A DNA stretch of 64,000 nt, from IMG/VR virus record IMGVR_UViG_3300005471_000011, positions 40,108 to 104,107 of that record. The stretch is one strand, 5' to 3'. Numbering within the stretch: the first letter of the stretch is position 1; the number at the start of each line of letters is the position of its first letter. The notes under the pieces are model-generated. The model worked only from the letters and a program-made list of their open reading frames with translations. It was not told the origin of the DNA and made no database searches. Below, piece by piece: positions 12,823 to 49,215 of the stretch. Source of the DNA: a virus. The position numbers were made by a program, and so were the translations under genes.

Positions 12823-15314
12823 TGACATGCCCGGCCGCATTCAACCAGAAAGCTTTTCGCGGCCGAAACGACGACGGCAACGAGACGACTGCCACCTGGA
12901 AGGCGAACCAGAACACCAACTGGACGCAACTCGTTGACGTCAATTTCCGGGTGCGGTTTGAGATCCAGGAGACGGCCGCTTGCGCGGGGGCCAACAAGGT
13001 TTGGCGCCTGCAATACAACCGCAATTCCGCTGGCTGGGTTGACGTCAGCGGTTCCAGCAACGTCGTGCGCGCATCCGCGTCCGCGAATTTAGCGGACGGT
13101 GCAAACCTGACCGACCAGCTCACGGTTGGGACCGGGACGTTCATCGGCGCGACTGGCTTCGACGAAGTGGACGGCAATGCCGGCGGTGCCTCGATGGACG
13201 TGGCCGCGTCCGGCCATTCGGAGTGCGAGTTTTCCGTACAACTGCGCTCGGCCGATGTGTCGGACGGCGACGCGATTCAGCTTCGCGTCAGCGACGCCGG
13301 GACGGCAATCGCCGCATACGATGCGACGCCTAGCATGACCGCAGACGTGCAAAGCGCCAGCTCTGCAAGCTCGGTCAGCAGTTCCAGCACCAGCAGCATT
13401 TCATCGTCCTCGACGAGTTCTGCGTCATCATCGTCAACGAGTTCCGCAAGCTCAGTCAGCAGCTCTAGTACCTCGTCGGCAAGCTCCAGCAGCACGTCGT
13501 CAGCCTCAAGTGTTTCCAGTTCATCAACCTCCAGCGCCAGTTCTGTTTCGTCGGAATCATCTTCCAGTACGAGCAGCGAATCTTCGTCGAGCACAAGCAC
13601 GGCCAGCTCACTGTCTTCATCATCAACTTCGTCGGCCAGCTCGGTATCAAGCAGCAGTTCTAGTACCTCGCAGAGCGCCGGCGGTACCAGCTATCGTTAC
13701 GTCATCACGCGGCGGACGACGCGGTTCCTGTACGAGGAATATCCGCTGCCAAGAACAGCCGCGGATCGCCTGGCACCACAGGAGGAAGAAAGCAGCAATA
13801 GTTCTAGCTCGACCTCCAGCGCAAGTTCTTCGTCAACGTCTAGCGCTTCGTCCTCAAGCACGAGCACGGAATCATCGAGCGTCAGCAGCTCCTCGACATC
13901 CACGGCTTCAAGCAGCTCAACCTCGTCGGCGTCGTCGAGCAGCACGAGCACCGCTTCCTCGCTGAGTAGCGAATCCAGCGTCAGTTCGGTTTCGAGTTCC
14001 TCTACTAGCAGCGAGTCATCAAGCAGTACGTCCTCGGCAAGTAGTATTTCGTCATCGAGCACCAGTAGCGCCAGTTCTGTTTCCAGCAGCTCAACATCCT
14101 CACCGACAAGCGAATCCAGCGCTAGTTCGGTGTCCAGCTCCAGCGTCAGTAGCTCATCCACCTCCAGCGAATCATCTTCCAGTACATCGTCGATCAGCTC
14201 TAGCTCCACAAGCACTGCCTCCACAAGTTCTTCTGGCGTTGGCCCAACCATCGTTTATGTGGTGATCCGGCGAACCATGCGGTTTGCTAAGCCGGAAGAT
14301 GATCGCTCGGACGCCGTCATCGTCGAAACGACTGTTGTCGAAGATGAGGAGTCGAGTTCATCCACAGCCAGCAGCGTTTCTTCGTCGAGCACAAGTTCCG
14401 CCAGCTCCAGCTCGACATCCACTGTTTCTTCATCCTCGACCAGCTCGGCAAGTTCGGTCAGTTCGGTCAGTAGTAGCTCCACTTCATCCGCTTCTTCAAG
14501 CAGCACGTCGAGCGTCTCAATCGCCAGTTCGCTGAGTTCGGTTTCCAGCTTATCGACATCAAGCATCTCGTCGTCTAGCACCAGTACCGCGAGTAGCAGC
14601 GTTTCATCCTCTAGCACTAGCAGTGCGAGCAGCAGCTCGACATCCAGCGCATCCTCAAGCAGCACGTCAACGCAAAGCAGCTCAGTATCGAGTTCTTCTA
14701 CGTCGAGCATTTCAAGCAGCTCTACGTCGTCGATCAGCTCTAGCTCAACGTCAACCGAAAGCAGTTCCCAGTCGGTGGACGAGTCAACGTCCAGCACGCG
14801 ATCTTCGTCCAGCACGTCGAGCATTTCGAGTTCATCGACCTCCTCCGCATCGTCGATCAGCTCCGTCAGCAGCAGCTCGACCTCCAGCGTTAGCTCGGCA
14901 TCCTCCGCCAGCTCGTCTAGCACGAGCACCGCGTCGAGTTTGTCCAGCTCCTCAACGTCCTCGGTCAGCAGCGTTAGTTCTGTTTCAAGTTCAAGCACCT
15001 CAAGCGTCAGCAGCGCATCGACGCTCAGCTCCTCTTCGACGAGTTCAATCTCCAGCCTGTCCTCGGCCAGCTCGCAAAGTTCCTCCAGCACCAGCTCGGC
15101 AAGCAGTTCCTCGACAAGCAGCATCTCCTCATCGAGCACGAGTAGCCTGTCTTCTCAAAGCAGTTCCAGCCTTTCCACGAGTTCCAGCTCCAGCGGTTTG
15201 GGATTGTTTCCGGCCTGCGCAGGTGCTACAAGGGTTGGGATTGCTCACGCGGGAGCACGACGGGTAGGACCATACACTGCGGGGGCGCAGCGCAAGTCGG
15301 AGGAACGCGAATGA
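12822..15314 (+). CDS. poly-serine (mucin-like) structural protein
   Basis: Globular N-terminal domain of about 175 aa, then three long Ser/Thr tracts separated by Y/V-VI-RRT-RF linkers; Ser encoded by mixed codons. Confidence 0.75.
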   Translation: MTCPAAFNQKAFRGRNDDGNETTATWKANQNTNWTQLVDVNFRVRFEIQETAACAGANKVWRLQYNRNSAGWVDVSGSSNVVRASASANLADGANLTDQLTVGTGTFIGATGFDEVDGNAGGASMDVAASGHSECEFSVQLRSADVSDGDAIQLRVSDAGTAIAAYDATPSMTADVQSASSASSVSSSSTSSISSSSTSSASSSSTSSASSVSSSSTSSASSSSTSSASSVSSSSTSSASSVSSESSSSTSSESSSSTSTASSLSSSSTSSASSVSSSSSSTSQSAGGTSYRYVITRRTTRFLYEEYPLPRTAADRLAPQEEESSNSSSSTSSASSSSTSSASSSSTSTESSSVSSSSTSTASSSSTSSASSSSTSTASSLSSESSVSSVSSSSTSSESSSSTSSASSISSSSTSSASSVSSSSTSSPTSESSASSVSSSSVSSSSTSSESSSSTSSISSSSTSTASTSSSGVGPTIVYVVIRRTMRFAKPEDDRSDAVIVETTVVEDEESSSSTASSVSSSSTSSASSSSTSTVSSSSTSSASSVSSVSSSSTSSASSSSTSSVSIASSLSSVSSLSTSSISSSSTSTASSSVSSSSTSSASSSSTSSASSSSTSTQSSSVSSSSTSSISSSSTSSISSSSTSTESSSQSVDESTSSTRSSSSTSSISSSSTSSASSISSVSSSSTSSVSSASSASSSSTSTASSLSSSSTSSVSSVSSVSSSSTSSVSSASTLSSSSTSSISSLSSASSQSSSSTSSASSSSTSSISSSSTSSLSSQSSSSLSTSSSSSGLGLFPACAGATRVGIAHAGARRVGPYTAGAQRKSEERE

Positions 15315-25921: not shown

Positions 25922-27634
25922 ATGGGCGTCAGGTCTGCCACCGGCACATTCTCCTTGCTGGCCAAGGTGGAGTTGACCAATGCGCAGGACGATGCCCAAA
26001 CCGGCACGGCCAACCTGGGCACGTTCATCCGGCAAGCCCTGGAAAACGGCGTCGCGGAAAACCAGATCGACAGGGCCTGGAGCAACCAAAGCGGCTACTT
26101 GCAATCCGGGGAAACGCTGGACATCTCCCTGAGCACCTTTGCCAACCAGAACCTGGGCATGGGCCACGGCAAGGATGCGCTGGGCCAGACGATGGACCTG
26201 CTGGCGATTGTCGGATTCGGTTTGACGCAGACCGCCGGCGCCGGCCGCCTTGAATTGAATCCCAGCCTGCCGGCGAGTAATGCGACATGGGTGCCAACTT
26301 TGAGTGTCGCTAACGGCGGCGCGTTCTATCCGGGCCGGGCAATCGCATTGTTTGCGCCGGGAGAACCGGCGATTAACATCACCCCCGGCAGCGCGGACGT
26401 CATCCGCTTGAAGGCGACGGGCGGTGACGTCAACTATTCCCTGGCGATTCTGGGCCGGCACGACGAGGAGGAAAGCAGCTCGTCCAGCACGAGCAGCACT
26501 TCGTCCGTGAGTAGCTCGTCATCGAGCACGAGCACGAGCACCAGCTCCCAGAGCACGGAATCCAGCAGCACGACTTCGAGCGTTTCTAGTTCATCTACGA
26601 GCGCAGACACTTCCAGCGTCAGCTCGTCCAGTAGCTCGACCTCGTCAGTATCTTCCAGCTCAACCAGCAGCGTCAGTTCATCGAGCAGTTCGAAGTCCGG
26701 TGAGAGTTCAACACGGTCGAGTTCATCCACCTCTTCGGCATCGAGTTCGAGCACGTCTTCGGCTAGTAGCAGCTCCACAAGTTCGGCGTCGTCTAGTTCC
26801 ACCAGTTCGGTGTCGAGCAGCAGCAGCTCCCAGAGCTTCTCGTCCGCGTCATCCAGTTCCACGAGCACGCTATCGAGTTCCAGCACTTCAAGCGCAAGCT
26901 CGTCAAGCTCGTCGAGTTCGAGTTCGTCGAGTCAGTCGGCTTCTAGCCAGTCCAGCCTTTCCTCCTCCAGTACAAGCAGTGCATCGTCATCATCGTCCAG
27001 CACGCTGACCGGAAATCTGCGATTCTCCGATTCATTCAACCGTGAGCTTCTGGGATTGACAGACGGATTGGGCTATACCGCGGCAGGGTTTGAAGATCTT
27101 GGAACCGGAGGAAGCGGCTTTGACTTAAATTCCGCCAACGGGGCGAACATCGTAGCGAACAAGATGCGTCTCAATTACGTCGATGGAGACGCGGAAGTCA
27201 ACGTCATCATTTTCCCGAACGTCAACGGGGACATCTACGCCTATTATCGCCTTGCATTTCTTGGGACGTCCTCGTTCGTCGCGCTGCGCCTCTACACGGC
27301 GAGCGATCTATCCACCTGGGTGGAAGTGCGGTTCACAAACGCGGTGGACGAGTTCGACAACGACAAAATCTCGATCCGGACGCAAAGCGCCACGCTCGAC
27401 GAGGAAATTGCCGGCAGTGCCGTTCCTAATGTATATCTCCAGTTGGAGGGAACTGTCCTGTCCGCCCAGTGGGAGGACGTTGTCGTGTCCGCTGATCTTG
27501 GTTCAGTGCCGACGTTCTACCGCGCCGCCATCGTCGCGCAGAACAAGGACCTGGACACCGGGATCGCGCACGAGTTCGACAACTGGTTTGTCTGCACGGT
27601 GGTCCCGACCGGCACTTCCACTTGGCCGCTCTAA
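25922..27634 (+). CDS. poly-Ser structural protein with C-terminal ConA-like domain
   Basis: N-terminal domain paralogous to 18999/27638 ending GRHDEEE; about 175-aa Ser tract; FSDSFNR..FDNW C-terminal domain. Confidence 0.7.
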   Translation: MGVRSATGTFSLLAKVELTNAQDDAQTGTANLGTFIRQALENGVAENQIDRAWSNQSGYLQSGETLDISLSTFANQNLGMGHGKDALGQTMDLLAIVGFGLTQTAGAGRLELNPSLPASNATWVPTLSVANGGAFYPGRAIALFAPGEPAINITPGSADVIRLKATGGDVNYSLAILGRHDEEESSSSSTSSTSSVSSSSSSTSTSTSSQSTESSSTTSSVSSSSTSADTSSVSSSSSSTSSVSSSSTSSVSSSSSSKSGESSTRSSSSTSSASSSSTSSASSSSTSSASSSSTSSVSSSSSSQSFSSASSSSTSTLSSSSTSSASSSSSSSSSSSSQSASSQSSLSSSSTSSASSSSSSTLTGNLRFSDSFNRELLGLTDGLGYTAAGFEDLGTGGSGFDLNSANGANIVANKMRLNYVDGDAEVNVIIFPNVNGDIYAYYRLAFLGTSSFVALRLYTASDLSTWVEVRFTNAVDEFDNDKISIRTQSATLDEEIAGSAVPNVYLQLEGTVLSAQWEDVVVSADLGSVPTFYRAAIVAQNKDLDTGIAHEFDNWFVCTVVPTGTSTWPL

Positions 27635-27637
27635 CCC

Positions 27638-28342
27638 ATGTCCAGCCGCGAAGCTACCGCCGATATCAAACTCGTCCTGGAGGCGACGATTGTCAATGCG
27701 CTGCCCGATGGGCAGGAGCCATCGGCAGGGCTAGGACTGACGGTCGCTACTAAGTTCGACAGCGGCACATCCGAGAATCAGTACAACCGCGAATGGGAGG
27801 ACAAGCGAACGCTGCTGTCCGGCGCTTCGGAAGACTTGGACTTTTTCGACTTCACGGGATTCGACATCGGTGCAGGAGCGGGCAAGGATGCCTTGGGGCA
27901 GGACTTGCGGTTGCAGGAAATCGTCACGCTGATCATTCAGCAGACCGGCGGCGATGGAAAGCTGGAAATCAACGCGACCGATCCTACGGGCATGCTGCTG
28001 TGGGTGCGCAGGTTCACAGTGGCCAATGGCGCGGCGACAGGTAAGACGTTGCTGTTCATGCACTCGCCGGGCGAGATCGGCTATCCGGTGATTGAAGGAT
28101 CTTCATTCGAAGTCCGGGTAAGTGCCAACGGCGGGGACGTTGAATACACGGTCGTCGTGCTGGGGCGCGACACCGAAGAAGAATCTACGAGCAGCCGGTC
28201 ATCGAGCAGCTCCAGCGTCAGCAGTATTTCCAGCAGCTCGACAAGTTCACGGTCCAGTTCGTCCACGAGCAGCGCGAGTAGTTCGTCAGTATCTAGCAGC
28301 TCGACGAGCAGCGTATCCTCTTCCAGTAGCAGTTCGTCATGA
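27638..28342 (+). CDS. poly-Ser structural protein (paralogue)
   Basis: Same domain ending GRDTEEE plus a terminal Ser tract. Confidence 0.7.
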   Translation: MSSREATADIKLVLEATIVNALPDGQEPSAGLGLTVATKFDSGTSENQYNREWEDKRTLLSGASEDLDFFDFTGFDIGAGAGKDALGQDLRLQEIVTLIIQQTGGDGKLEINATDPTGMLLWVRRFTVANGAATGKTLLFMHSPGEIGYPVIEGSSFEVRVSANGGDVEYTVVVLGRDTEEESTSSRSSSSSSVSSISSSSTSSRSSSSTSSASSSSVSSSSTSSVSSSSSSSS

Positions 28343-29382
28343 GCCAGGAAACACGCGCGGAAGGAATCGCCCGACGCCGGCGGGAGCGTGAGGCTCGCAA
28401 GGCGGCGAGGGAAGCCAAAAGCCAGCAGCGGCAGGCGCAACGCGAGGCAATGGGCGGACCCATGCCGGAAGCAATGGCCGATCCCGGCACGGATGATCCG
28501 CTGGAGGTCTGCGACCGGGACAAGCGGCCGACGCACGCCATGCGCAACCAGTGGGCGGGCTGCGCGGCGTTCCTCGTCTGCGGGGGACCGAGCCTGCGGC
28601 AGATCGACCTATCGTTCCTGCGCGAGCGCGGGATCGTTTCGCTTGGCATCAACAACGTCGCGGGATACGCTCCCGTCCGCGCGTGGTGCTACAGCGACTC
28701 CACACACAAGTTCCACCACGGGATATTCTTCGATCCCAACATCATCAAGTTCGTTCCCAAGCCGAGATTAGAGAAGAACGACAAGAGCCGCGTGCGCGCC
28801 AAGCTGCCGGACGGAACGTTTCGCTGGACCGGCAGGCACGTTTCGCAGTGTCCCAACGTGTTCGGGTTCCCTCGCGAGACGAAGTTCTTCCCGGAGCAGT
28901 TCTTCTCGCTGCCGTATGCCAGTTGGGGTGCGAGCGACAAGCACCCGGAGATGAACTACCGCGCAAAAAACATTTTCACGTTCTTCATCGGGTTCCGGCT
29001 GCTCCACTACCTGGGCGTGCGACGGGTTTACATGTTGGGCGTGGACTTCAAGATGGACGCCGCGCAGGGTTATGCTTTCGGTCAGGCGCGCTGGCCCGGC
29101 GCCGTCAACGGCAACAACGGCAAGTACCGGATCGCCACGGGCATGCTCCAGGAGTTGCGCCCGCATTTCGAGAAGGCTGGGTTCGAGGTTTATCAGACCA
29201 ACCCGGACAGCGCGCTGCGGGTATTCGATTACGTTCCGCTGGCGACCGCCATCCAGGATTGCCGGGGAGCGGTTCCGCCGGAACCGTGGTCAGAAGATGC
29301 CTTGGAGGGGTGGTACGAAGATATCACCCCGGAAGGGCAGCAGAAGCCGACGGATGCGCCAGAAACCGCAGAAGAGGACTGA
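28339..29382 (+). CDS. DUF115/Maf-like (MptE-like, sialyltransferase-like fold) putative glycosyltransferase
   Basis: AFLVCGGPSL, GINN, YLGVRRVYMLGVDF, N..SAL.VF motifs. Confidence 0.65.
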   Translation: MSQETRAEGIARRRREREARKAAREAKSQQRQAQREAMGGPMPEAMADPGTDDPLEVCDRDKRPTHAMRNQWAGCAAFLVCGGPSLRQIDLSFLRERGIVSLGINNVAGYAPVRAWCYSDSTHKFHHGIFFDPNIIKFVPKPRLEKNDKSRVRAKLPDGTFRWTGRHVSQCPNVFGFPRETKFFPEQFFSLPYASWGASDKHPEMNYRAKNIFTFFIGFRLLHYLGVRRVYMLGVDFKMDAAQGYAFGQARWPGAVNGNNGKYRIATGMLQELRPHFEKAGFEVYQTNPDSALRVFDYVPLATAIQDCRGAVPPEPWSEDALEGWYEDITPEGQQKPTDAPETAEED

Positions 29383-29918: not shown

Positions 29919-30656
29919 CTACGGGAGTTTGCCGCGTCGCAATTCGGAGTAGGAGATCGGCGGACGCGGCGATAGGTTCTCAATGGGCTGCTCGACCGCT
30001 TGCTGTGCCGCCTGCTGAATGTCGAGCACCTGCTTCTCCGCTTGCTCGCGCTCGACGGCTTCGATGTCCCGGCGCACCTGCTCAAGCTGGACCTGCCGGA
30101 CCTCGGCGGCGGTAAGTCGTTTTGGCTGGGGCAATGTCGGCTCGCGGACGATCTTGGGCTTGACGTTGGCGGCGACGCTGACGGTTTGCGGCTCCGCAGC
30201 TACCGGTGCCGGCTGGGCGGGGTTGAAGGGGTCCAAGTTCTGGACGCCGCAGATGATCAGCCAGCCCAAGGCCAGCCCGCCAGCGCCCCCCAGGACGCAG
30301 CGGACGACGTGATCGGCTAGCGAAGGCAGCTTGTCGCGATGCCTGCGCCGGCGGTGCTGGCGGATGGCAAATGCAGGCCGGGCAGCTTGAACCGCGGGGG
30401 CGCAGGTCAAGGGTGGAGCGAACGGTTCGCCGGACTCCAGCTCGATCCCCTGGCTCTCGCCGCCCAGGGCTCGCCAGGACGCCCAGAAGTCATCCCGGTT
30501 GGCACACATGCCTTCATGGACCAACAGCGGTCCCAAGCCTCCTGCGCAGCTACAGTGCAGCCCCAGGCCCATGACGGCGACGGGTGTAGCCACAAGCTGC
30601 TGTCCGAAGAACGTCACGTTAAGCGGTTTCATTGCCAAGCCTCCCAGATTTCCCAT
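29919..30656 (-). CDS. hypothetical membrane-anchored protein
   Basis: Minus-strand ORF filling the gap; TM-like LGGAGGLALGWLII; divergent intergenic region upstream. Confidence 0.4.
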   Translation of the reverse strand: MGNLGGLAMKPLNVTFFGQQLVATPVAVMGLGLHCSCAGGLGPLLVHEGMCANRDDFWASWRALGGESQGIELESGEPFAPPLTCAPAVQAARPAFAIRQHRRRRHRDKLPSLADHVVRCVLGGAGGLALGWLIICGVQNLDPFNPAQPAPVAAEPQTVSVAANVKPKIVREPTLPQPKRLTAAEVRQVQLEQVRRDIEAVEREQAEKQVLDIQQAAQQAVEQPIENLSPRPPISYSELRRGKLP

Positions 30657-36332: not shown

Positions 36333-37157
36333 ATGAAAACCGTCGAAATCATCACGCATTGTTTCGCCGAGAAGATTCCCGCGTTCGCTTCACTGCTGAC
36401 GGCACAACTCAGCAGCTTGATCCTGTGGGAGCCGAGGAACTGCATGGCGGTTCTAACGATTTGCTATGCAGAAGATGACCAGCGAACAAAATGGGTTATC
36501 GAACGACTGGTCGAAATTGTGGACGGTTGCAAGGAGGATGAACCGGAACTGGCCCGTGCAATTGATACCGGCTTAGTGCCGTGCCCGCATCCTAGAGTCG
36601 ATATGAAGTTGCTGTTTGAGCTAGACCGCGCAAAACTATTTCGTCGCTCTATCGGACGCAACATGGCAGCTCGCCGTAGCCGCGCAGACATCGTGTGGTT
36701 CGCAGACTGCGACTACATCTTCGGAGAAGGCTGCCTGGACGCGCTGGCTGCCTCTGAGTTCACCGGCTTGACATATCCCCAAGAGGTCCAAATCCACCGC
36801 GCACACCACATCGGCGACGCGGAGATTGCCAGGATCAAGCCGGGCGAGCTGTTCACGCCGGACCTGTCGTTGTTTGAAACCAAGCGGGAGAAGTTCGCCA
36901 TCGGCGGGCTGCAAATCGTTCCCGGCGACGTGGCGCGGAAGTATGGCTACTGCGACGGCGGACGCTGGCAGAAGCCGGCTGATCCGGCGCAAGGATTCCA
37001 GGACACGCGAGAGGACAAAGCTTACCGCCAGGAGATGATCGAGAAGTGCGGGCCAAGCAAGGCGATCCATCTACCCAACCTTTATCGGTTCCGCCACAGT
37101 GAGTCGGCTTTTGAGGATTCCGCCAAGCGGCTGGCGCAGACCGCTGGAAAGGTCTAA
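36333..37157 (+). CDS. GT2-like glycosyltransferase
   Basis: GRNMAA...ADIVWFADCDYIF, ED motif. Confidence 0.7.
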   Translation: MKTVEIITHCFAEKIPAFASLLTAQLSSLILWEPRNCMAVLTICYAEDDQRTKWVIERLVEIVDGCKEDEPELARAIDTGLVPCPHPRVDMKLLFELDRAKLFRRSIGRNMAARRSRADIVWFADCDYIFGEGCLDALAASEFTGLTYPQEVQIHRAHHIGDAEIARIKPGELFTPDLSLFETKREKFAIGGLQIVPGDVARKYGYCDGGRWQKPADPAQGFQDTREDKAYRQEMIEKCGPSKAIHLPNLYRFRHSESAFEDSAKRLAQTAGKV

Positions 37158-42368: not shown

Positions 42369-43187
42369 ATGAACGCACGAGGCGTCCTGTATTACAACAT
42401 CGGCGACCGCTACGCCGTGCCGCTGGCGGTGTCCCTGATGACGCTGCGCGACTGGTACGCGGGTCCGGTGGCAATCGTCACGGACATGGCTGGTATCCCG
42501 TGGATTCGCAAGATGCTCAAGATTCCCGGCTTGCTGCCACTGGATATCATCCCCATGCTGCCGGAAAGCTCCTCCGAGCAGTGGCGCTATCTTGCCAAGC
42601 TCGAACTGCCGGAGCTATCACCGTTCGCCTCCACGGTCATGCTGGACGCGGACACGCTGGTCGTCGGGTCCATCGAGGAGTTGTGGCCCGACATGAAATC
42701 CGGGGAAGTGGTCCTGACAAATCGTTCCAACGGCGCCACGGCTCACGTCAAGATGCGGCTGCGATGCCAGCAGTGGATTGATATCGCTCCGCTGCGCGCG
42801 AGGCGCGTGCGTTCCCAGCGGTTCAAGGTTGCCGCGATCAACACGGGCATCATGGCTTGGTCGCGCAACAGCTCGCCTTTCGTGCGCGAATGGTACCGGC
42901 TGGCGAGGCTCCGTCCGATCCACAGTTGCGACGAGATGGCGGCACAGCTCACCTATCCCGACTTCCCGCACAGGATTCTGGATTCCCGCTACAATGCCAA
43001 CGTGACCTACGACCGGGAGGACGTGCGAATCTGGCACGGGCCGCGGTCACAGTTCTGGAAGGCAGGCGGGCGCGGCAGGGCGCTGTGGACGCCTTATTTC
43101 CGGCGAGAACTGCCATTGCTGCGAGAGCTGCTGCCAACGGCGGCGTGGCTTGGTGGCTGGCTGGAAAGGGAAACAGGGAAAGCATGA
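42369..43187 (+). CDS. GT8-like glycosyltransferase (paralogue of 35389)
   Basis: SPFASTVMLDADTLV, INTGI, DEMAAQL, IWH. Confidence 0.75.
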   Translation: MNARGVLYYNIGDRYAVPLAVSLMTLRDWYAGPVAIVTDMAGIPWIRKMLKIPGLLPLDIIPMLPESSSEQWRYLAKLELPELSPFASTVMLDADTLVVGSIEELWPDMKSGEVVLTNRSNGATAHVKMRLRCQQWIDIAPLRARRVRSQRFKVAAINTGIMAWSRNSSPFVREWYRLARLRPIHSCDEMAAQLTYPDFPHRILDSRYNANVTYDREDVRIWHGPRSQFWKAGGRGRALWTPYFRRELPLLRELLPTAAWLGGWLERETGKA

Positions 43188-43792
43188 GCGGCACCTCGGC
43201 GCAGCTTACGGCGGTCACGTGCGTATATTGGATGCACCGCTACAACTTTGAGCCGCGAACGATTCTGAACATCGGTATTGGCAAGACGTGTCCTGAGTTG
43301 GCGATCTGGCAATGGCTGCTGCCAAACGCGCAAATCCTTGGCGTTGATCCACGCTGGAGCCCGCGCGGCAACTGGAGCAGGGGCGGTGCCAAGCAGCTCA
43401 AGGTTGGCGTCGGGGACGGGACCAAGCCCACGGCGACTTACTGCGGCGATTGCCGGTCGGTCAAGTGCGAAAACCCAGCGCACACCGCGCACAAGTCCAC
43501 CGCGACCATGACGACGATTGACCAGATCGTCGCGGACGAGAAACTCCAGCCGCCGTTTTTTATCTGGATGGACATTGACGGCGGGGAGATCGACGCGATC
43601 CACGGTGCCAAGCTGACGCTGCCGCACGCGGGATACATGAACGTGGAGTTCTGCGACCACAAGCAGATTCCGGAGCACCGCGAGCAGTTGCACTTGCTGC
43701 TAAACGCTCACAGCTTCGTCCTCATGTACGATCACAAGGCCGTGTCTCAGGACAGGCTTTATCGCAACCGCCGCTTCAAGATGCCAAAATGA
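43184..43792 (+). CDS. FkbM-like methyltransferase
   Basis: ILNIGIG, GVDP, TTID, WMDIDGGE...I.GA. Confidence 0.7.
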   Translation: MSGTSAQLTAVTCVYWMHRYNFEPRTILNIGIGKTCPELAIWQWLLPNAQILGVDPRWSPRGNWSRGGAKQLKVGVGDGTKPTATYCGDCRSVKCENPAHTAHKSTATMTTIDQIVADEKLQPPFFIWMDIDGGEIDAIHGAKLTLPHAGYMNVEFCDHKQIPEHREQLHLLLNAHSFVLMYDHKAVSQDRLYRNRRFKMPK

Positions 43793-43980
43793 TCAAGGAC
43801 GTGCTGACTCCCAAGGATGTTGCGAAGCTGACTGGCTTCAGCCAGAGCACCATCAAGAAATGGATGGATCGTGGCTTGCTTAAGGGCTGGCGCATTCCCG
43901 GCTCGAACCACCGACGGTTCGACCGCGAGACCGTGCTGGCGTTCCTGCGCAGCAACGGGATTCCGGAACCTGCGCCATGA
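43789..43980 (+). CDS. excisionase-like (HTH_17) DNA-binding protein
   Basis: LTPKDVAKLTGFSQSTIKKWMDRGLLKGWRIPGSNHRRF...FLRSNGIP. Confidence 0.8.
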   Translation: MIKDVLTPKDVAKLTGFSQSTIKKWMDRGLLKGWRIPGSNHRRFDRETVLAFLRSNGIPEPAP

Positions 43981-44489
43981 TCCGCCTGGGGTTCACCCGC
44001 TACGAGTTGCCGGAGCTGATCGACCTGCAAGGCTACAAGCGCGCCGTCGAGGTCGGAATCAACCTTGGCCAGTTCAGCTATCATCTGCTCAAGTACTCCA
44101 AGCTGGAGCTGCTTGTCAGCGTGGACAGTTACCCAGGCAAGTACCGCAAGGCGATGCCGAGCGCCAAAAACTATTTGGCGCCGTTCGGGGCGCGGTCGCA
44201 GTTGTTGCGGCGATCCAGCGTGGACGCGGCAGCGACCGTCGCTAACGGATTCTTTGACTTCGTGTATATTGACGCGGCGCACGACTATGCCAGCGTTCAT
44301 GCTGACATTGAGGCATGGGCGAGGACGGTTCGTCCGGGTGGGCTGCTCGCTGGCCACGACTACACGCCGGCGCACGCGGGCGTGATGCAGGCGGTGGACG
44401 AGTTCACGTCCAATTCAAACTGGACGCTTTTTTCGACGCGCGAGCTGTGGGCGAGTTGGATGTTCTTTGTGCCGGAGTCGGCTAGTTGA
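43977..44489 (+). CDS. class I SAM methyltransferase (Methyltransf_24-like)
   Basis: VEVG..G.FS, SVD, FDFVYIDAAHDY, GGLLAGHDY. Confidence 0.85.
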   Translation: MIRLGFTRYELPELIDLQGYKRAVEVGINLGQFSYHLLKYSKLELLVSVDSYPGKYRKAMPSAKNYLAPFGARSQLLRRSSVDAAATVANGFFDFVYIDAAHDYASVHADIEAWARTVRPGGLLAGHDYTPAHAGVMQAVDEFTSNSNWTLFSTRELWASWMFFVPESAS

Positions 44490-44514
44490 CACGGCACGCA
44501 GCACTATGTAAAAT
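44486..44514 (+). promoter_or_regulatory. near-consensus sigma70-type promoter for the RAMP/array operon
   Basis: TTGACA-17 bp-TAAAAT with TG immediately before the -10. Confidence 0.75.
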
Positions 44515-44655: not shown

Positions 44656-45447
44656 ATGACGACTGCAACTGTTGGAAAGAATCGGTTGAACGGAGACACG
44701 GCGCTTGATGGCGACATCCAGGTCGCCGAGGATCAGGCGCGAGCCAACGCCAAGGAGAAGGGCAAGAAAGAGACGATCCAGGTCAAGCCGCTGCGGCTCA
44801 AGGTGCTTGAGGTCATCATCATCGGCACCGCGCCGCTGCTCCAGTTGCGTTTCTCCGCCAAGGCAATCGCCAAGATGCGGGCGACGCAGGAAGCCGGGGG
44901 GCAGGCCAAGTCCAAGAAGAACCGCGAGGCACGGGACTTCCACGCGGATTACCTGGGTGCCTTTCATCTGTTCGCTGACGGCACTCCCGGATTCCCGGCA
45001 TCGGCGATCCGCGCGGCGTGCATCAGCGCGTGCCGCACGTGCAATTTCAAGATGACGCTGGCGAAGCTTTCCATTTTCACGCTGGCGGACGGCTTGGACA
45101 TCGTGGACGGCATCCCGCTGGTCAAGGTGTTCGGCACGCCGGAGGAGACAGTAATGCCTGTTCGAAATCAAACTGGCGTTACGGATTTGCGGGCGCGTCC
45201 GATGTTCAAAGCCTGGAAGGCAAAAGTTCGAATCCGCTTCGATGAAGACCAGTTTTCTGCGCAAGATGCGTACAACCTTCTCTGCCGCGCCGGCGCTCAG
45301 GTCGGTATCGGAGAAGGACGGCCGGACTCACGCGAGTCGGCCGGCATGGGGCTGGGCACTTTCCGCGTGATCCTGCCGGACGATGAAGCGAGCGACGAGG
45401 AGGCGTTGCAGATTCCTTGGAAGGCGAAGGCGGTGGTTGAAGCCTAG
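44656..45447 (+). CDS. Cas7/RAMP-like RRM protein (candidate RNA-guided effector)
   Basis: GAGGAG RBS; LEVIIIGTAPLL (RAMP first strand); PGFPASAIRAAC (compare Cas7/Csm3 P.IPGSSLKG); C-terminal glycine-rich loop VGIGEGRP...GMGLGTFRV; array starts at its stop codon. Confidence 0.7.
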   Translation: MTTATVGKNRLNGDTALDGDIQVAEDQARANAKEKGKKETIQVKPLRLKVLEVIIIGTAPLLQLRFSAKAIAKMRATQEAGGQAKSKKNREARDFHADYLGAFHLFADGTPGFPASAIRAACISACRTCNFKMTLAKLSIFTLADGLDIVDGIPLVKVFGTPEETVMPVRNQTGVTDLRARPMFKAWKAKVRIRFDEDQFSAQDAYNLLCRAGAQVGIGEGRPDSRESAGMGLGTFRVILPDDEASDEEALQIPWKAKAVVEA

Positions 45448-46367
45448 GCTCGTTTGTCGCGGATAGTTTAGGAGTGCCTTGTCCCGCATTGTTCGGGCGA
45501 GGCAGGCATGGTAAGTCGCGGCATGCCTAGTCGCTGTTTGGCAGGCATGTCCCGACGTGTTAGGGCAAGCTGCGGCACCGCGGGCTGTGTCACGGCGCGG
45601 CAGGCATGTCCCGTTGGTCCGCTTCGGTCGGTATGGCACGGAGAGGTACGGCAGGCTTGACTAGTCCCGGAATGGTCGGTCGGTCATGGCAGGCATTACC
45701 CGTCACGCTTCGGTATGGCAAGACGCGGCAGGCAAGATTCGTCTCGGCAGGATTCGTCTCGGTTGGTTCTGGAATGGCATGTCAAGGTCTGGCAGGCCCG
45801 TCGGGTCTGGCCGTTGCTGGGCACGGTTTGCACGCGGTATGGCAGGCATGGCTGAGCGAGTCCCGTTGTGTTCCGGTCCGGCAGGAGCGGAAGGTTTCGG
45901 CGGGGTGTGGTAGGTCTCGGCAGGCTAGTATTGGAGCGTTTCGGATTGGTGAGGCACGGTTTCGCAGGCGAGCCAAGGCATGTCAGGTCCGGACGATGAG
46001 CGGCTCGGCAGGCATGGAACGGCAAGTTGAGTTTGGACTAGTCGCGGTTCGGCAGGCGTGGAGCGTTCGGTTCGACATGTTAGGGTGCGGATCGTATGGT
46101 CCGCTACGGCAGGCACGTCGGGTCAGGACTGTGCGGAGCGAGTTCGGGCACGGTCAGACGCGGCAGGCCAGCCATCGCATGGCGCGTTTGGTCCTTGCAA
46201 GGCTATGCAGGTCCCGGCAGGCAGCGCGGGTCATGGTAAGGCAAGGCATGGTTCGTCGTCGCAGGCGAGGTTCGTCAAGTCCCGGTGGTAAGCGATTCGT
46301 CGCGGAGAGGTTTGGCAGGCGTGTCACGGAGAGTTCAGCAGTGGGTTTGTCAAGGCAGGCACGGTTT
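45447..46367 (+). repeat. array 1: GGCA-anchored pentamer (GDY-NN) repeat array, putative guide-RNA array
   Basis: 19 (G/C)GCAGG anchors at 45501,45540,45599,45650,45688,45727,45791,45841,45880,45919,45963,46007,46051,46108,46162,46216,46260,46314,46354; 13 of 18 spacings equal 4+5n. Confidence 0.9.
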
Positions 46368-46396
46368 TATTTCTTTCACAATCAGGAGATCGTTTT

Positions 46397-46900
46397 ATGG
46401 TGACCGAGATCAATGATGCAGTACGCAATGAAATGCTGGCGCTGCTCGATGACGACGGGCTGCTCAAGCCTGAAGCCGTCGTTGCGGCGGCAGCCAATGA
46501 AGCCAGCAGCATGCACAAGTTCTTCACTTGGGACGATGCTAAGGCAGCCGCCAAGTGCCGGCTGGAAGAGGCGCGTGCTCTGATCCGCAACGTCGAATGC
46601 CAGTACGATGAAAACTGGCTCAAGGGTCCGGTCCCGGCGTTCGTCAGCTTGGCGAATGATCGTGGACGCGAGGGCGGCGGCTATCGCTCCACGCCAGCGG
46701 TGCTGACCAACAATCAGCTTCGCGCGGAGCTGATCGCTACCGCCAAGAAGGAACTGGAGTCCTGGGCGCGACGGCACAAGGTGCTTCGCGGCTATGTGCT
46801 CAACGTGCTGGTCGCCAGCGGGATTGAGCCGACTGGCATTTTTTCAGAGTCCGAGATTGGCTTGACAGTTACAGGAGGAGGCGATCAGGAAGCGGCATAG
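46397..46900 (+). CDS. accessory protein between the arrays
   Basis: AGGAG RBS; G.LKPEAVV.AA....SSMH.FFTWDD.KAA...RLEEAR.LIR motif; bounded by both arrays. Confidence 0.75.
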   Translation: MVTEINDAVRNEMLALLDDDGLLKPEAVVAAAANEASSMHKFFTWDDAKAAAKCRLEEARALIRNVECQYDENWLKGPVPAFVSLANDRGREGGGYRSTPAVLTNNQLRAELIATAKKELESWARRHKVLRGYVLNVLVASGIEPTGIFSESEIGLTVTGGGDQEAA

Positions 46901-47870
46901 CAGGTTAGGCACGGATCGTTATGACTGGCCCCGACTAGGTTTGTCATGCGCGGCTTGGCAGGCGAGATTTGCCCTGTTCAGGATCGTCGTGTCGCGGCGG
47001 CGCAGGCAGCGAGGGTCTGGTCGATGCTCGGCAAGGTCCGTCACGGCAGGCCGGGCTAGGCAAGTCTGATTCTGACACGGCAGTTCCCGGCAGTCGCGGT
47101 TAGTCTTGCTGCGACCAGTTAGGGCAAGGCAGGCACGGCCCGTGCCTGGATCGTGCCATAACGAACCGCGTCGGAACACGAACCGCGGCAGGCCAGACTG
47201 GTCAGGGGACGGCTCGAAAGGCACGGCACGATCCGTCATGGTGTGGCAGGCACGGCTAGTCAGGACTGCGCACGATCCGTTTTGGTCCGGCAGGCGCGAC
47301 GCGACGTGATCTGTCTGGGAACGTCGTGACGAGGTCTGGCAGGTACGTCTGGTTGGGGCGCGATCCGTCATGGTATGGCGCGGCAGGCTAGGCACGGCAG
47401 GACGCGGCAGGGCGCGACGCGGATGATCCCGGCAGGCAAGGTGTGTCGAGGCGAGGTTGATCGCGGTAAGATCGTGGCAGGCGAGGCATGTCCGGTCAGC
47501 GACTGGCATGCTGAGGCGGGTCGCGGCAGGGCGGCTTGGCAGGCGTGTTTTGGTCAGCCTCGGTGTGGCTTGCTTTGGCAGGCGCGGTTAGACTGGTTTC
47601 GTCGCGACTAGGCACGGCAGGCACGTCTTGACTAGGCTGGGAGCTGTAGGTCGCGTTTTGGCTGGGCAGGCAGGTCTCTGCATGGTCCGGACGGAAAGGC
47701 TCGGCTCGGCAGGCACGCAATGTCACGGCACTGCGAGGTCAGCTATGGCGCGGAAGGGCAGGCATGTCACGAACCGTCAGCGCCCGGTTTGGCGAGTCGG
47801 GTCGCGGCAGGTTAGTCCAGTCAAGGACAGGTCAGGCATGCTTCGGTTCGGCAGGCAAGGCGTGGCATGA
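46899..47870 (+). repeat. array 2: GGCA-anchored pentamer (GDY-NN) repeat array, putative guide-RNA array
   Basis: 21 anchors (some variant) at 46899,46957,47001,47045,47089,47128,47187,47245,47289,47338,47382,47431,47476,47538,47577,47616,47665,47708,47757,47806,47850; 15 of 20 spacings equal 4+5n. Confidence 0.9.
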
Positions 47871-47894
47871 AAGTCCTGCCGATGAAAGGAAATC

Positions 47895-48740
47895 ATGAAC
47901 TGGAAATCTCCGCCGGCAGACCAGTCTAAAGTCTGGCTGAACAAGTCTTTAGAAATTCAGATATTACTCGCGTGCAACTGGTCGTGTGTTAGTTGCGATC
48001 AGTTCAGCCAGTTCTCTAAGTTCGCCTGGGTCAAGAAGGGCACGATGAGTTTGGAGCAGATCGCGCACTTCTGCGCCGAGATGCGCGCCGGCAATTTCTA
48101 CTTCGGTCGGATTCGGCTGGTCGGAGGTGAGCCGACGATCCATCCTCGCTTCGGAGAGATCGTCGGCATGCTTCGCGAGGAGTTGATCGACAACGGCCAC
48201 GTAGCGGTCCTGGAGGTTGTCACCAACGGTTCGCACCCGGAGAAGATCAAGCCGGTGGCGCACCTGATCAACCGCGTGCGCGTCAGTGATGATAACGACA
48301 AGCAAAAACATCACACGGCGAACCTGATTGCCACGCCGGCATCACTTGGCTACCAAGGAAAGCGGTGCAACCAGCCGGAGCATTGCGGCTGGTCTTTGAG
48401 CTATTATGGGTTTGCGCCTTGCAGCTCTGCCGGTGGAATCATGCGGCTGCGCGACCTGATGTCAGAGCACCAGCGAACCAGCCTTCCGCAGGTCAAAGGC
48501 ACCGAGGCCAACTGGCCGAAGTTGCAGAATCTTTGCGACCAGTGCTACCATGCATTGCGTAGCGAGGACAAAATCAAGTCCGGCACGTCGGACCCATCCA
48601 GGAACATGCCCAGCGAAGAAGCTGCAGTCCACGTCAACAAGTGGGCGGGCGGTCACAAGCCCGACTGGAAAATCTACGGGCAGGAAGCCAATGAAAATCC
48701 CGCTCATGGCGACGCGCTACGACCTGCCGGCGCTGTTTGA
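47895..48740 (+). CDS. radical SAM protein
   Basis: CNWSCVSC (CxxxCxxC), GGEPTIHP, VTNG; C-terminal Cys cluster. Confidence 0.85.
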   Translation: MNWKSPPADQSKVWLNKSLEIQILLACNWSCVSCDQFSQFSKFAWVKKGTMSLEQIAHFCAEMRAGNFYFGRIRLVGGEPTIHPRFGEIVGMLREELIDNGHVAVLEVVTNGSHPEKIKPVAHLINRVRVSDDNDKQKHHTANLIATPASLGYQGKRCNQPEHCGWSLSYYGFAPCSSAGGIMRLRDLMSEHQRTSLPQVKGTEANWPKLQNLCDQCYHALRSEDKIKSGTSDPSRNMPSEEAAVHVNKWAGGHKPDWKIYGQEANENPAHGDALRPAGAV

Positions 48741-49215
48741 CGCGCTGAAGTACCGGGTCGGCGCGGAGATTGGCGTTGACCACGGCTATTTCTCACGGCA
48801 CCTGCTGGCATCGTCCAGGCTAGATCGTCTGTACTCCGTGGATTCCTGGCAGGGTAAGTTCGGCAAGTGCATCGCGGACGCCAAGCATTACCTCGCGGAG
48901 TTCGGGCATCGGTCGGAGATCATCCACCGCAGCGCGTCCCAGGCAGCGGCATCGCTGTCCGACAACAACGTGCGGCTGGACTTCGCGTATATTGACGCTT
49001 CCCATCGGGAGCAATCGGTAGCATTGGACATGCAGGACTGGGCACCGTTGGTCAAGCCGGGCGGGTGCCTGTGCGGGCATGACTACTGCGACCAGCCTAT
49101 GACTGGGGTAATCCAGGCGGTGGACGGATTCGCGGCGGAGCGTGGGTTGCCGGTGTTCGTCACTTCCGAGCCGTGGGCGTCATGGCTAATCTTTATGCCG
49201 GAGCAAGCAGCATGA
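48691..49215 (+). CDS. class I SAM methyltransferase (Methyltransf_24-like; paralogue of 43977)
   Basis: AEIGV..G.FS, SVDSW, LDFAYIDASH, GG.LCGHDY. Confidence 0.85.
   Translation: MKIPLMATRYDLPALFDALKYRVGAEIGVDHGYFSRHLLASSRLDRLYSVDSWQGKFGKCIADAKHYLAEFGHRSEIIHRSASQAAASLSDNNVRLDFAYIDASHREQSVALDMQDWAPLVKPGGCLCGHDYCDQPMTGVIQAVDGFAAERGLPVFVTSEPWASWLIFMPEQAA

What the first reader, a model, noticed from the sequence alone, without database searches (positions are those of the whole stretch)
45447..47870. Array grammar: 4-nt anchor plus n x (conserved triplet + variable dinucleotide), a possible gapped guide code
Manual parsing gives, for example, 46007: GGCA|GGCAT|GGAAC|GGCAA|GTTGA|GTTTG|GACTA|GTCGC|GGTTC, and 47577: GGCA|GGCGC|GGTTA|GACTG|GTTTC|GTCGC|GACTA|GGCAC. 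Of 38 anchor spacings, 28 are exactly 4+5n (39, 44, 49, 54, 59, 64 nt; 7-12 pentamers), versus about 1 in 5 expected by chance. Triplets are mostly GGC, GGT, GTC, GTT, GAC or GGA, while positions 4-5 vary freely and no two units are identical. A simple satellite would homogenise all positions. Conserving 3 of 5 positions while diversifying 2 suggests the dinucleotides carry information (14-24 nt per unit), read non-contiguously. The code interpretation is inference.
Basis: partly seen in the sequence, partly recalled or inferred. Interest (0 to 1): 0.88.

Follow-up and report, generated by a model that had tools for sequence, protein, structure and literature searches.

The report
VIPR guide-RNA arrays in a phage

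Summary
Window 45448-46380 and 46901-47880 are non-coding, G-rich on the + strand and built of pentamers G-K-Y-N-N. Entropy is low at positions 1-3 and near maximal at 4-5.

It matches VIPR (bioRxiv 10.64898/2026.04.26.720920). In VIPR, Vipr filaments hold the GGY triplets and the NN dinucleotides pair with DNA, skipping every third base.

I tested that rule here. The guide at 46162-46215 (10 pentamers), decoded with a 1-nt skip, has:
- 27 exact matches in IMG/VR;
- 73 in GTDB genomes, 51 of them Planctomycetota by title;
- matches in 14 of 401 Planctomycetota genomes, against 0 for 0-, 2- and 3-nt skips.

All IMG/VR matches checked lie antisense on the motif GLYFSQAIIW of a ParB-DNA-methyltransferase gene, with the skipped bases at wobble positions. 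Six other guides gave no clear target.

Verdict: a new member of a known kind.

The parts
44486..44514 (+). Promoter-like site (TTGACA, 17 nt, TAAAAT) upstream of the vipr gene. It is a possible start of a vipr-array-vap-array transcript.
   Evidence: Consensus scan only, 11 of 12 matches. Not evidence of function.
44656..45447 (+). vipr gene: a stand-alone RAMP/Cas7-like protein of 263 aa as called in the database. The longest ORF starts at TTG 44578.
45448..46380 (+). vrRNA array A: 18 GGCAGG junctions, with units of GGCA plus 7-12 pentamers G-K-Y-N-N.
46162..46215 (+). One guide unit: GGCA plus 10 pentamers, with NN string CA AT AT GC TG CT AA TA AG CC. It has an identified natural target.
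   Evidence: The 1-nt-skip pattern has 27 exact IMG/VR hits and 73 GTDB contig hits. In every IMG/VR hit the match lies antisense on the motif GLYFSQAIIW of a gene that, in the three proteins scanned against Pfam, carries N6_N4_Mtase (two with ParB_N, one with a Hint domain); the skipped bases are the wobble positions. Gap-size test.
46397..46900 (+). Putative vap (VIPR accessory protein), 167 aa, phrog_15946.
46901..47880 (+). vrRNA array B: 22 GGCAGG junctions with the same grammar. It includes a non-pentameric stretch at 47128-47186 with a small hairpin.

Best explanation
This is a VIPR (Viral Interference Programmable Repeat) locus in a 104-kb phage contig from a rhizosphere metagenome. 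It consists of vipr (44656-45447), vrRNA array A, a putative vap (46397-46900) and vrRNA array B.

By analogy with the characterised SUSP1 system, the arrays are transcribed on the + strand and yield about 40 short guides. Vipr protomers polymerise on each guide, one per pentamer. They sequester the G-K-Y triplet and present the NN dinucleotide. The NN string pairs with double-stranded DNA whose matching dinucleotides are separated by one skipped base, and this silences the target.

Shown here:
- the grammar of the arrays;
- the homology of the protein to SUSP1 Vipr and its Cas7-like fold;
- conservation of the three-part module in related viral contigs;
- for one guide, a natural target that obeys the 1-nt-skip rule with the skips at codon wobble positions.

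That target is a conserved motif of a ParB-DNA-methyltransferase gene of phages and prophages found mostly in Planctomycetota. The phage's own homologue is divergent at that motif.

Inferred, not shown here: transcription, processing at the GGCAG junctions, filament formation and silencing.
For: Array grammar and position entropies.

Module. A vipr homologue, a phrog_15946 homologue and a G-rich period-5 array on the coding strand occur together in about 75 of 81 IMG/VR loci. GGCAG spacing is 4 mod 5 in 230 of 365 cases there.

Target of guide 46162:
- 27 exact IMG/VR hits and 73 GTDB hits, 51 of 73 Planctomycetota by contig title;
- three other patterns of 18-22 specified bases gave 0 hits in the same collection;
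- all 27 IMG/VR hits are codon-phased antisense matches to GLYFSQAIIW, in a gene carrying N6_N4_Mtase in all three proteins scanned and ParB_N in two of them;
- gap-size test: 0 / 14 / 0 / 0 genomes for skips 0 / 1 / 2 / 3.

Clade-wide test. Of 2066 nine-pentamer windows from the 81 loci searched against the masked loci, 13 reached 17 of 18 matches or better at skip 1. The counts were 2, 2 and 0 at skips 0, 2 and 3, and 1-5 for shuffled or reversed orders.

No self-targeting. The phage's own methyltransferase reads GLKVRHVLIW at the site.

Published mechanism.
Against: There are no expression data, since no RNA run is listed for this DNA.

Only one of the seven guides that I scanned has a convincing target.

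Units are 7-12 pentamers with no 3' tail or pseudoknot, unlike the characterised type II vrRNAs (9-16 repeats plus a tail).

Position 2 of the triplet is relaxed: G 54%, T 26%, A 12%.

The neighbouring 167-aa protein is not detectably related to SUSP1 vap1.

The preprint says staggered arrays exist, but it confirmed only the ribozyme-interspersed and single-vrRNA architectures by small-RNA sequencing.
Confidence: 0.9

Rival explanations
1. The arrays are a VIPR-type RNA, but some or many units are decoys or 'solo' guides. They would redirect or titrate the VIPR machinery of rival phages rather than arm this phage's own Vipr. This was described for satellite-encoded vrRNAs of SUSP1.
For: A later preprint reports stand-alone vrRNAs used as counter-measures. 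In the cross-locus test, VIPR phages of this clade carry guides that near-match other VIPR phages, including this one. Six of seven guides tested here found no clear target.
Against: The arrays lie directly beside the phage's own vipr and vap genes, on the same strand. The one decoded guide targets a conserved gene of other phages, not a decoy-like site.
Confidence: 0.05
2. The arrays are a sequence-specific binding platform, as RNA or DNA, for an oligomeric protein that reads 5 nt per subunit. Examples would be a sponge, a centromere or an iteron field for the 167-aa protein. The dinucleotides would carry no target information.
For: This was my first reading, based on the periodicity, the strand asymmetry and an array-gene-array layout that recalls iterons around a rep gene. 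The N-terminal half of the 167-aa protein weakly resembles winged-helix domains.
Against: It does not explain why the NN string of guide 46162 matches a conserved gene exactly at one gap size only, in 100 contigs, with the gaps on wobble positions. It also ignores the Vipr homology of the upstream gene.
Confidence: 0.03
3. The region is a degenerating pentanucleotide satellite produced by replication slippage, with no function.
For: Local duplications exist, for example a 15-nt unit repeated 2.1 times at 45731-45762.
Against: Slippage would homogenise all five positions. Here positions 4-5 are near maximal entropy while 1-3 are constrained. The same grammar sits at the same syntenic place in phages whose proteins are only 40-60% identical, and even with a different triplet (GTT in L030).
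Confidence: 0.01

Closest known systems
VIPR systems: Vipr + vrRNA + Vap. Type II of Escherichia phage SUSP1 is the characterised example (bioRxiv 10.64898/2026.04.26.720920 and 10.64898/2026.04.26.720927).
   Same: A stand-alone RAMP protein homologous to SUSP1 Vipr. A two-gene operon flanked by non-coding arrays on the same strand. Pentamers with a conserved triplet and a variable dinucleotide. A 1-nt-skip match to a protein-coding target with the skips on wobble positions. Targets in other phages or prophages. No self-target.
   Different: There is no 3' tail or pseudoknot. Units of 7-12 pentamers abut through a GGCAG junction with a 1-nt frame overlap, the 'staggered' architecture that the preprint mentions but did not verify by RNA sequencing. 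There are about 40 units rather than 4. The triplet is G-K-Y rather than GGY. In the hhalign alignment, the residue that stacks on G2 in SUSP1 (W178) is Gly here; linking this to the relaxed position 2 is my inference. The accessory protein is unrelated to vap1. I could not assign one of the seven published types, because the supplementary tables were not available.
Class 1 CRISPR-Cas backbone filaments (Cas7/Csm3 on crRNA)
   Different: No CRISPR repeats or spacers, and no 20-40-nt repeats found in the region. The period is 5 nt with three bases sequestered, not 6 nt with one flipped. The guide is read non-contiguously.
TIGR-Tas tandem interspaced guide RNA arrays
   Same: A non-CRISPR tandem array that encodes short guides next to its effector gene. 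It is grouped with VIPR and CRISPR as periodic arrays.
   Different: The period is 18 nt and the effector is a different, Nop-domain protein (the effector family is from my own knowledge, not tested here).
TRAP-trp leader RNA: 11 (G/U)AG triplets separated by 2-3 nt (my own knowledge, not tested here)
   Same: The grammar of a conserved triplet plus a variable spacer, read by one protein subunit per repeat.
   Different: In TRAP the spacers carry no information and there is no nucleic-acid target. The protein fold is unrelated.

Membership tests
VIPR | A Vipr protein: a stand-alone RAMP homologous to the published Vipr proteins. | tested here: met
   Alignment A2 (38 sequences) against SUSP1 Vipr (L083:28474-29061:-) gives hhalign probability 95.9%, E 6e-9, 172 columns. 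I located the SUSP1 locus myself from its period-5 signal, and its residue numbering agrees with the structure paper.
VIPR | vrRNA region: at least 4 tandem pentamers with a conserved GGY-like triplet and hypervariable NN. | tested here: met
   Entropies are 0.87 / 1.63 / 1.41 / 1.95 / 1.92 bits. There are 7-12 pentamers per unit and about 40 units. The triplet is G-K-Y, a relaxed form. Non-canonical triplets are reported for other VIPR clusters.
VIPR | A minimal locus: vipr plus one accessory gene, flanked by the non-coding arrays. | tested here: met
   The order is vipr, array A, the 167-aa gene, array B, all on the + strand. The same trio occurs in about 75 of 81 related loci.
VIPR | Targets obey the 1-nt skip rule (NN x NN x ...), on either strand, typically with the skip on the wobble base. 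| tested here: met
   Guide 46162; gap-size series. Clade-wide enrichment at skip 1 only. This is met for one guide of this locus. Six others gave no clear target.
VIPR | No self-targeting of the source genome. | tested here: met
   The best matches of 20 guides to the array-masked 104-kb genome equal those of shuffled guides at every skip.
VIPR | vrRNAs are expressed and co-purify with Vipr. | not testable with these tools
   No RNA run is listed for this DNA.
VIPR type II (SUSP1 / P. fulva clade) | vrRNA of 9-16 repeats followed by an invariant structured 3' tail, with vap1 as the accessory gene. | tested here: not met
   Units abut with only a GGCA(G) junction and there is no room for a tail. 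The 167-aa protein against SUSP1 vap1 gives hhalign probability 0.3%. So this is a VIPR but not type II. It fits the staggered-array architecture of Fig. S18.
CRISPR-Cas | An array of direct repeats of about 20-40 nt separated by unique spacers. | tested here: not met
   Tandem Repeats Finder finds only 10- and 15-nt duplications. The only recurrent word is the 6-7-nt GGCAGG(C).

The most novel reading that the evidence does not exclude
This locus may represent a VIPR clade whose RNA biology has not been characterised experimentally. The clade combines Vipr, a phrog_15946 accessory protein and tail-less arrays punctuated by GGCAG.

Its features:
- Dozens of guides (about 40 here, 62 junctions in L060) are packed head to tail with a 1-nt frame overlap.
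- There is no tail, ribozyme or repeat handle to mark the ends. Unit boundaries would therefore have to be set by the GGCAG pentamer itself, or by the filament.

The one decoded guide is aimed at an almost invariant catalytic-domain motif of phage ParB-DNA methyltransferases found across several phyla. That would make it a broad-spectrum guide against a class of anti-restriction genes, rather than against one rival phage.
Probability: 0.3. Interest if true: 0.5.

Novelty: new member of a known kind. Interest (0 to 1): 0.3.

Why it matters
That validates the scan, but the discovery itself is already in the literature (four preprints, April-October 2026).

What this locus adds:
- It is a large natural example from a phage whose decoded guide targets elements found mainly in Planctomycetota.
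- It has a staggered, tail-less array and a relaxed G-K-Y triplet.
- It offers a concrete, testable guide-target pair: 46162-46215 against the GLYFSQAIIW motif of ParB-methyltransferase genes.
- It shows that the 1-nt-skip rule, established in E. coli and Pseudomonas systems, also holds in this distant clade.
- The same clade occurs in cultivable mycobacteriophages such as Saal, where it could be tested at the bench.

Tried and rejected
Early hypotheses. Before the literature search I considered a TRAP-like ring binder or RNA sponge, Chi or KOPS-like polar sites, iterons or a centromere around a rep-like gene, and two-tetrad G-quadruplexes. I dropped them once the Vipr homology and the target match were found.

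Searches that found nothing:
- Rfam, E up to 1.
- blastn of the region against INPHARED phages, apart from a Cy-LDV1 match to the vipr gene.

Tools and data not available:
- No RNA holder is listed among the sequencing runs.
- The paper's supplementary tables are not held, so the VIPR type could not be assigned.

Other guides under the 1-nt skip rule:
- 46108, 47289, 45540 and 47757: 0 exact IMG/VR hits.
- 47476: 2 hits, both codon-phased but not homologous to each other and in AT-rich contigs. Inconclusive.
- 46108 in metagenomes: 1 hit in a 183-aa ORF (I recognise it as Uma2-like; not searched) with the skip on codon position 2. Taken as chance.

Convergence on the target elements. None of the other guides matches the 100 target-bearing loci above the level of shuffled guides.

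A contiguous 16/16 match from an out-of-phase parse near the target site was judged chance after counting the tests.

Co-variation between the Vipr G-loop and the array triplet across loci showed no clear pattern, and many G-loops were not extracted.

Full report
**What is in the sequence**

The finding's coordinates hold two non-coding stretches, 45448-46380 and 46901-47880, on either side of a 167-aa ORF at 46397-46900.

- Both are G-rich on the + strand (38-39% G).
- Both lack the 3-nt periodicity of the flanking genes.
- Both show a strong local 5-nt autocorrelation.
- GGCAGG occurs 40 times on the + strand and its complement never does.
- In the whole 104,107-bp contig the period-5 signal is confined to this region.

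Parsing from each GGCAGG as GGCA plus pentamers gives G at position 1 in 84%, G or T at position 2 in 80% and C or T at position 3 in 88%. Positions 4 and 5 are almost free. The entropies are 0.87, 1.63, 1.41, 1.95 and 1.92 bits.

Of 38 anchor spacings, 23 are 4 mod 5 (p = 5e-8).

A profile around the anchors shows that the pentamer phase is kept on both sides and steps back by one base at GGCA. The '4-nt anchor' is therefore equally a terminal pentamer GGCAG whose last G is the first G of the next unit.

**Surroundings**

The gene upstream (263 aa as called in the database, 44656-45447) belongs to phrog_4652. The 167-aa gene belongs to phrog_15946. Neither has a Pfam family.

The upstream protein has more than 4000 database relatives. 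Its AlphaFold model (pLDDT 82) matches Csm3/Cas7 backbone subunits of type III and type VII CRISPR complexes:
- Foldseek probability 1.00.

**Conservation**

A scan of IMG/VR with an alignment of the 167-aa family returned 80 loci. In about 75 of 81 loci three things occur together:
- a homologue of the Cas7-like gene;
- a homologue of the 167-aa gene;
- a G-rich period-5 array lying directly beside or between them, on the coding strand.

The triplet can differ between loci: GGC in most, GTT in L030, G-S-A in L001. The GGCA(G) punctuation recurs, and GGCAG spacings are 4 mod 5 in 230 of 365 cases.

**What it is**

[quoted passage not shown] It describes VIPR systems as follows:
- They have a phage-encoded RAMP protein (Vipr), an accessory gene (vap), and vrRNAs of 9-16 pentamers in which GGY alternates with hypervariable NN.
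- The NN string recognises double-stranded DNA with one skipped base between dinucleotides, usually the codon wobble base.
- They are used mainly against competing phages.

A companion structure paper shows one Vipr protomer per pentamer, with the GGY bases sequestered and the NN bases presented. Two later preprints extend the biology and report non-canonical triplets.

**Membership tests run here**

I located the SUSP1 VIPR locus in NC_028808 from its period-5 signal.

The family alignment of the window's Cas7-like protein aligns with SUSP1 Vipr over the full length: hhalign 95.9%, E 6e-9, 172 columns. The alignment includes the G-loop.

In that alignment SUSP1 D177, W178 and R179 correspond to E, G and R. 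Loss of the Trp that stacks on G2 would fit the relaxed second position of the triplet here. That link is my inference only.

The 167-aa protein is not similar to SUSP1 vap1, and the units have no 3' tail. The locus is therefore a VIPR but not type II. It fits the staggered architecture.

**Testing the code on this array**

I decoded 20 in-phase units. None matches the phage's own array-masked genome better than shuffled guides at any gap.

The unit at 46162-46215 has 10 pentamers. Written with one N between dinucleotides, it gave 27 exact matches in IMG/VR. Three other patterns with 18-22 specified bases gave none, so the background is far below one.

- All 27 matches are homologous.
- The pattern lies antisense on codons for G-L-Y-F-S-Q-A-I-I-W.
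- Every skipped base is a wobble position.
- Three of the proteins were scanned against Pfam. All three carry N6_N4_Mtase, two with ParB_N and one with a Hint domain.

The same pattern has 73 exact matches in the GTDB species genomes, 51 of them in contigs titled as Planctomycetota.

| Gap between dinucleotides | Planctomycetota genomes with a match (up to 1 mismatch) |
|---|---|
| 0 nt | 0 of 401 |
| 1 nt | 14 of 401 (15 places) |
| 2 nt | 0 of 401 |
| 3 nt | 0 of 391 |

The backwards-pattern controls gave 0 in every search.

The phage has its own ParB-methyltransferase at contig 27325-28593, outside the window. It is 27-32% identical to the targets and reads GLKVRHVLIW at the site, so it is not targeted.

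**Clade-wide check**

I took 2066 nine-pentamer windows from the arrays of the 81 loci and searched them against the array-masked loci and this genome. The number of windows reaching 17 of 18 matches or better was:
- 13 at skip 1;
- 2, 2 and 0 at skips 0, 2 and 3;
- 4, 1 and 2 for shuffled dinucleotide order, and 5 for reversed order.

Some of the skip-1 pairs start at a unit boundary and run the length of the unit, for example L069 on L014 with 21 of 22.

**Limits**

- Six other guides gave no convincing target.
- The other guides do not converge on the target-bearing loci.
- No RNA data exist for this DNA.
- The published type could not be assigned, because the supplementary tables are not held.
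- A promoter-like site at 44486-44514 is a consensus match only.

**Verdict**

The system is already described. This is a new, uncharacterised member of the VIPR kind, with a staggered, tail-less array and one identified natural target.

Noticed in passing
L188:785-1030 (Mycobacterium phage Saal, NC_023580 about 36585-36830): A GGCAG-punctuated GGCNN pentamer array of the same grammar lies just upstream of Saal gp51 (a Vipr homologue) and gp52 (a homologue of the 167-aa protein). The annotated start of gp51 appears to overlap the end of the array. Other mycobacteriophages and Gordonia phages carry the same gene pair.
   Followed up: partly
G000 contig 27325-28593 (outside the window, upstream of it): The phage encodes its own ParB-like DNA methyltransferase, 27-32% identical to the genes its guide targets. 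It has a divergent sequence (GLKVRHVLIW) at the targeted motif.
   Followed up: partly
window about 30446-30471 and about 14130-14155: [quoted passage not shown] The window coordinates are my own conversion from the script's contig positions.
   Followed up: partly
window 47128-47186: One 'unit' in array B is not pentameric. It begins with a small hairpin, GGCAC-GGCCC-GTGCC (about 47132-47146). It could be an internal terminator, a processing element or a decayed unit.
   Followed up: no
window 45731-45762: A 15-nt stretch, GGCAAGATTCGTCTC, is tandemly duplicated 2.1 times inside array A. This hints that units arise by local duplication.
   Followed up: no
window 47476-47524 and 47757-47805: Two 9-pentamer guides share their fourth dinucleotide (AG) and their last three (GA GG GC). 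They may target homologous sites in two variant elements, or be diverged duplicates.
   Followed up: no
L060:2426-4925: A related viral contig carries a 2.5-kb array with 62 GGCAG junctions next to the homologue of the 167-aa gene, but no Vipr homologue was found within the 7.3-kb locus.
   Followed up: no
window 42857-44489 and 47895-49215: The VIPR locus is embedded among three methyltransferase-domain genes (FkbM type and two Methyltransf_24) and a radical SAM gene.
   Followed up: no
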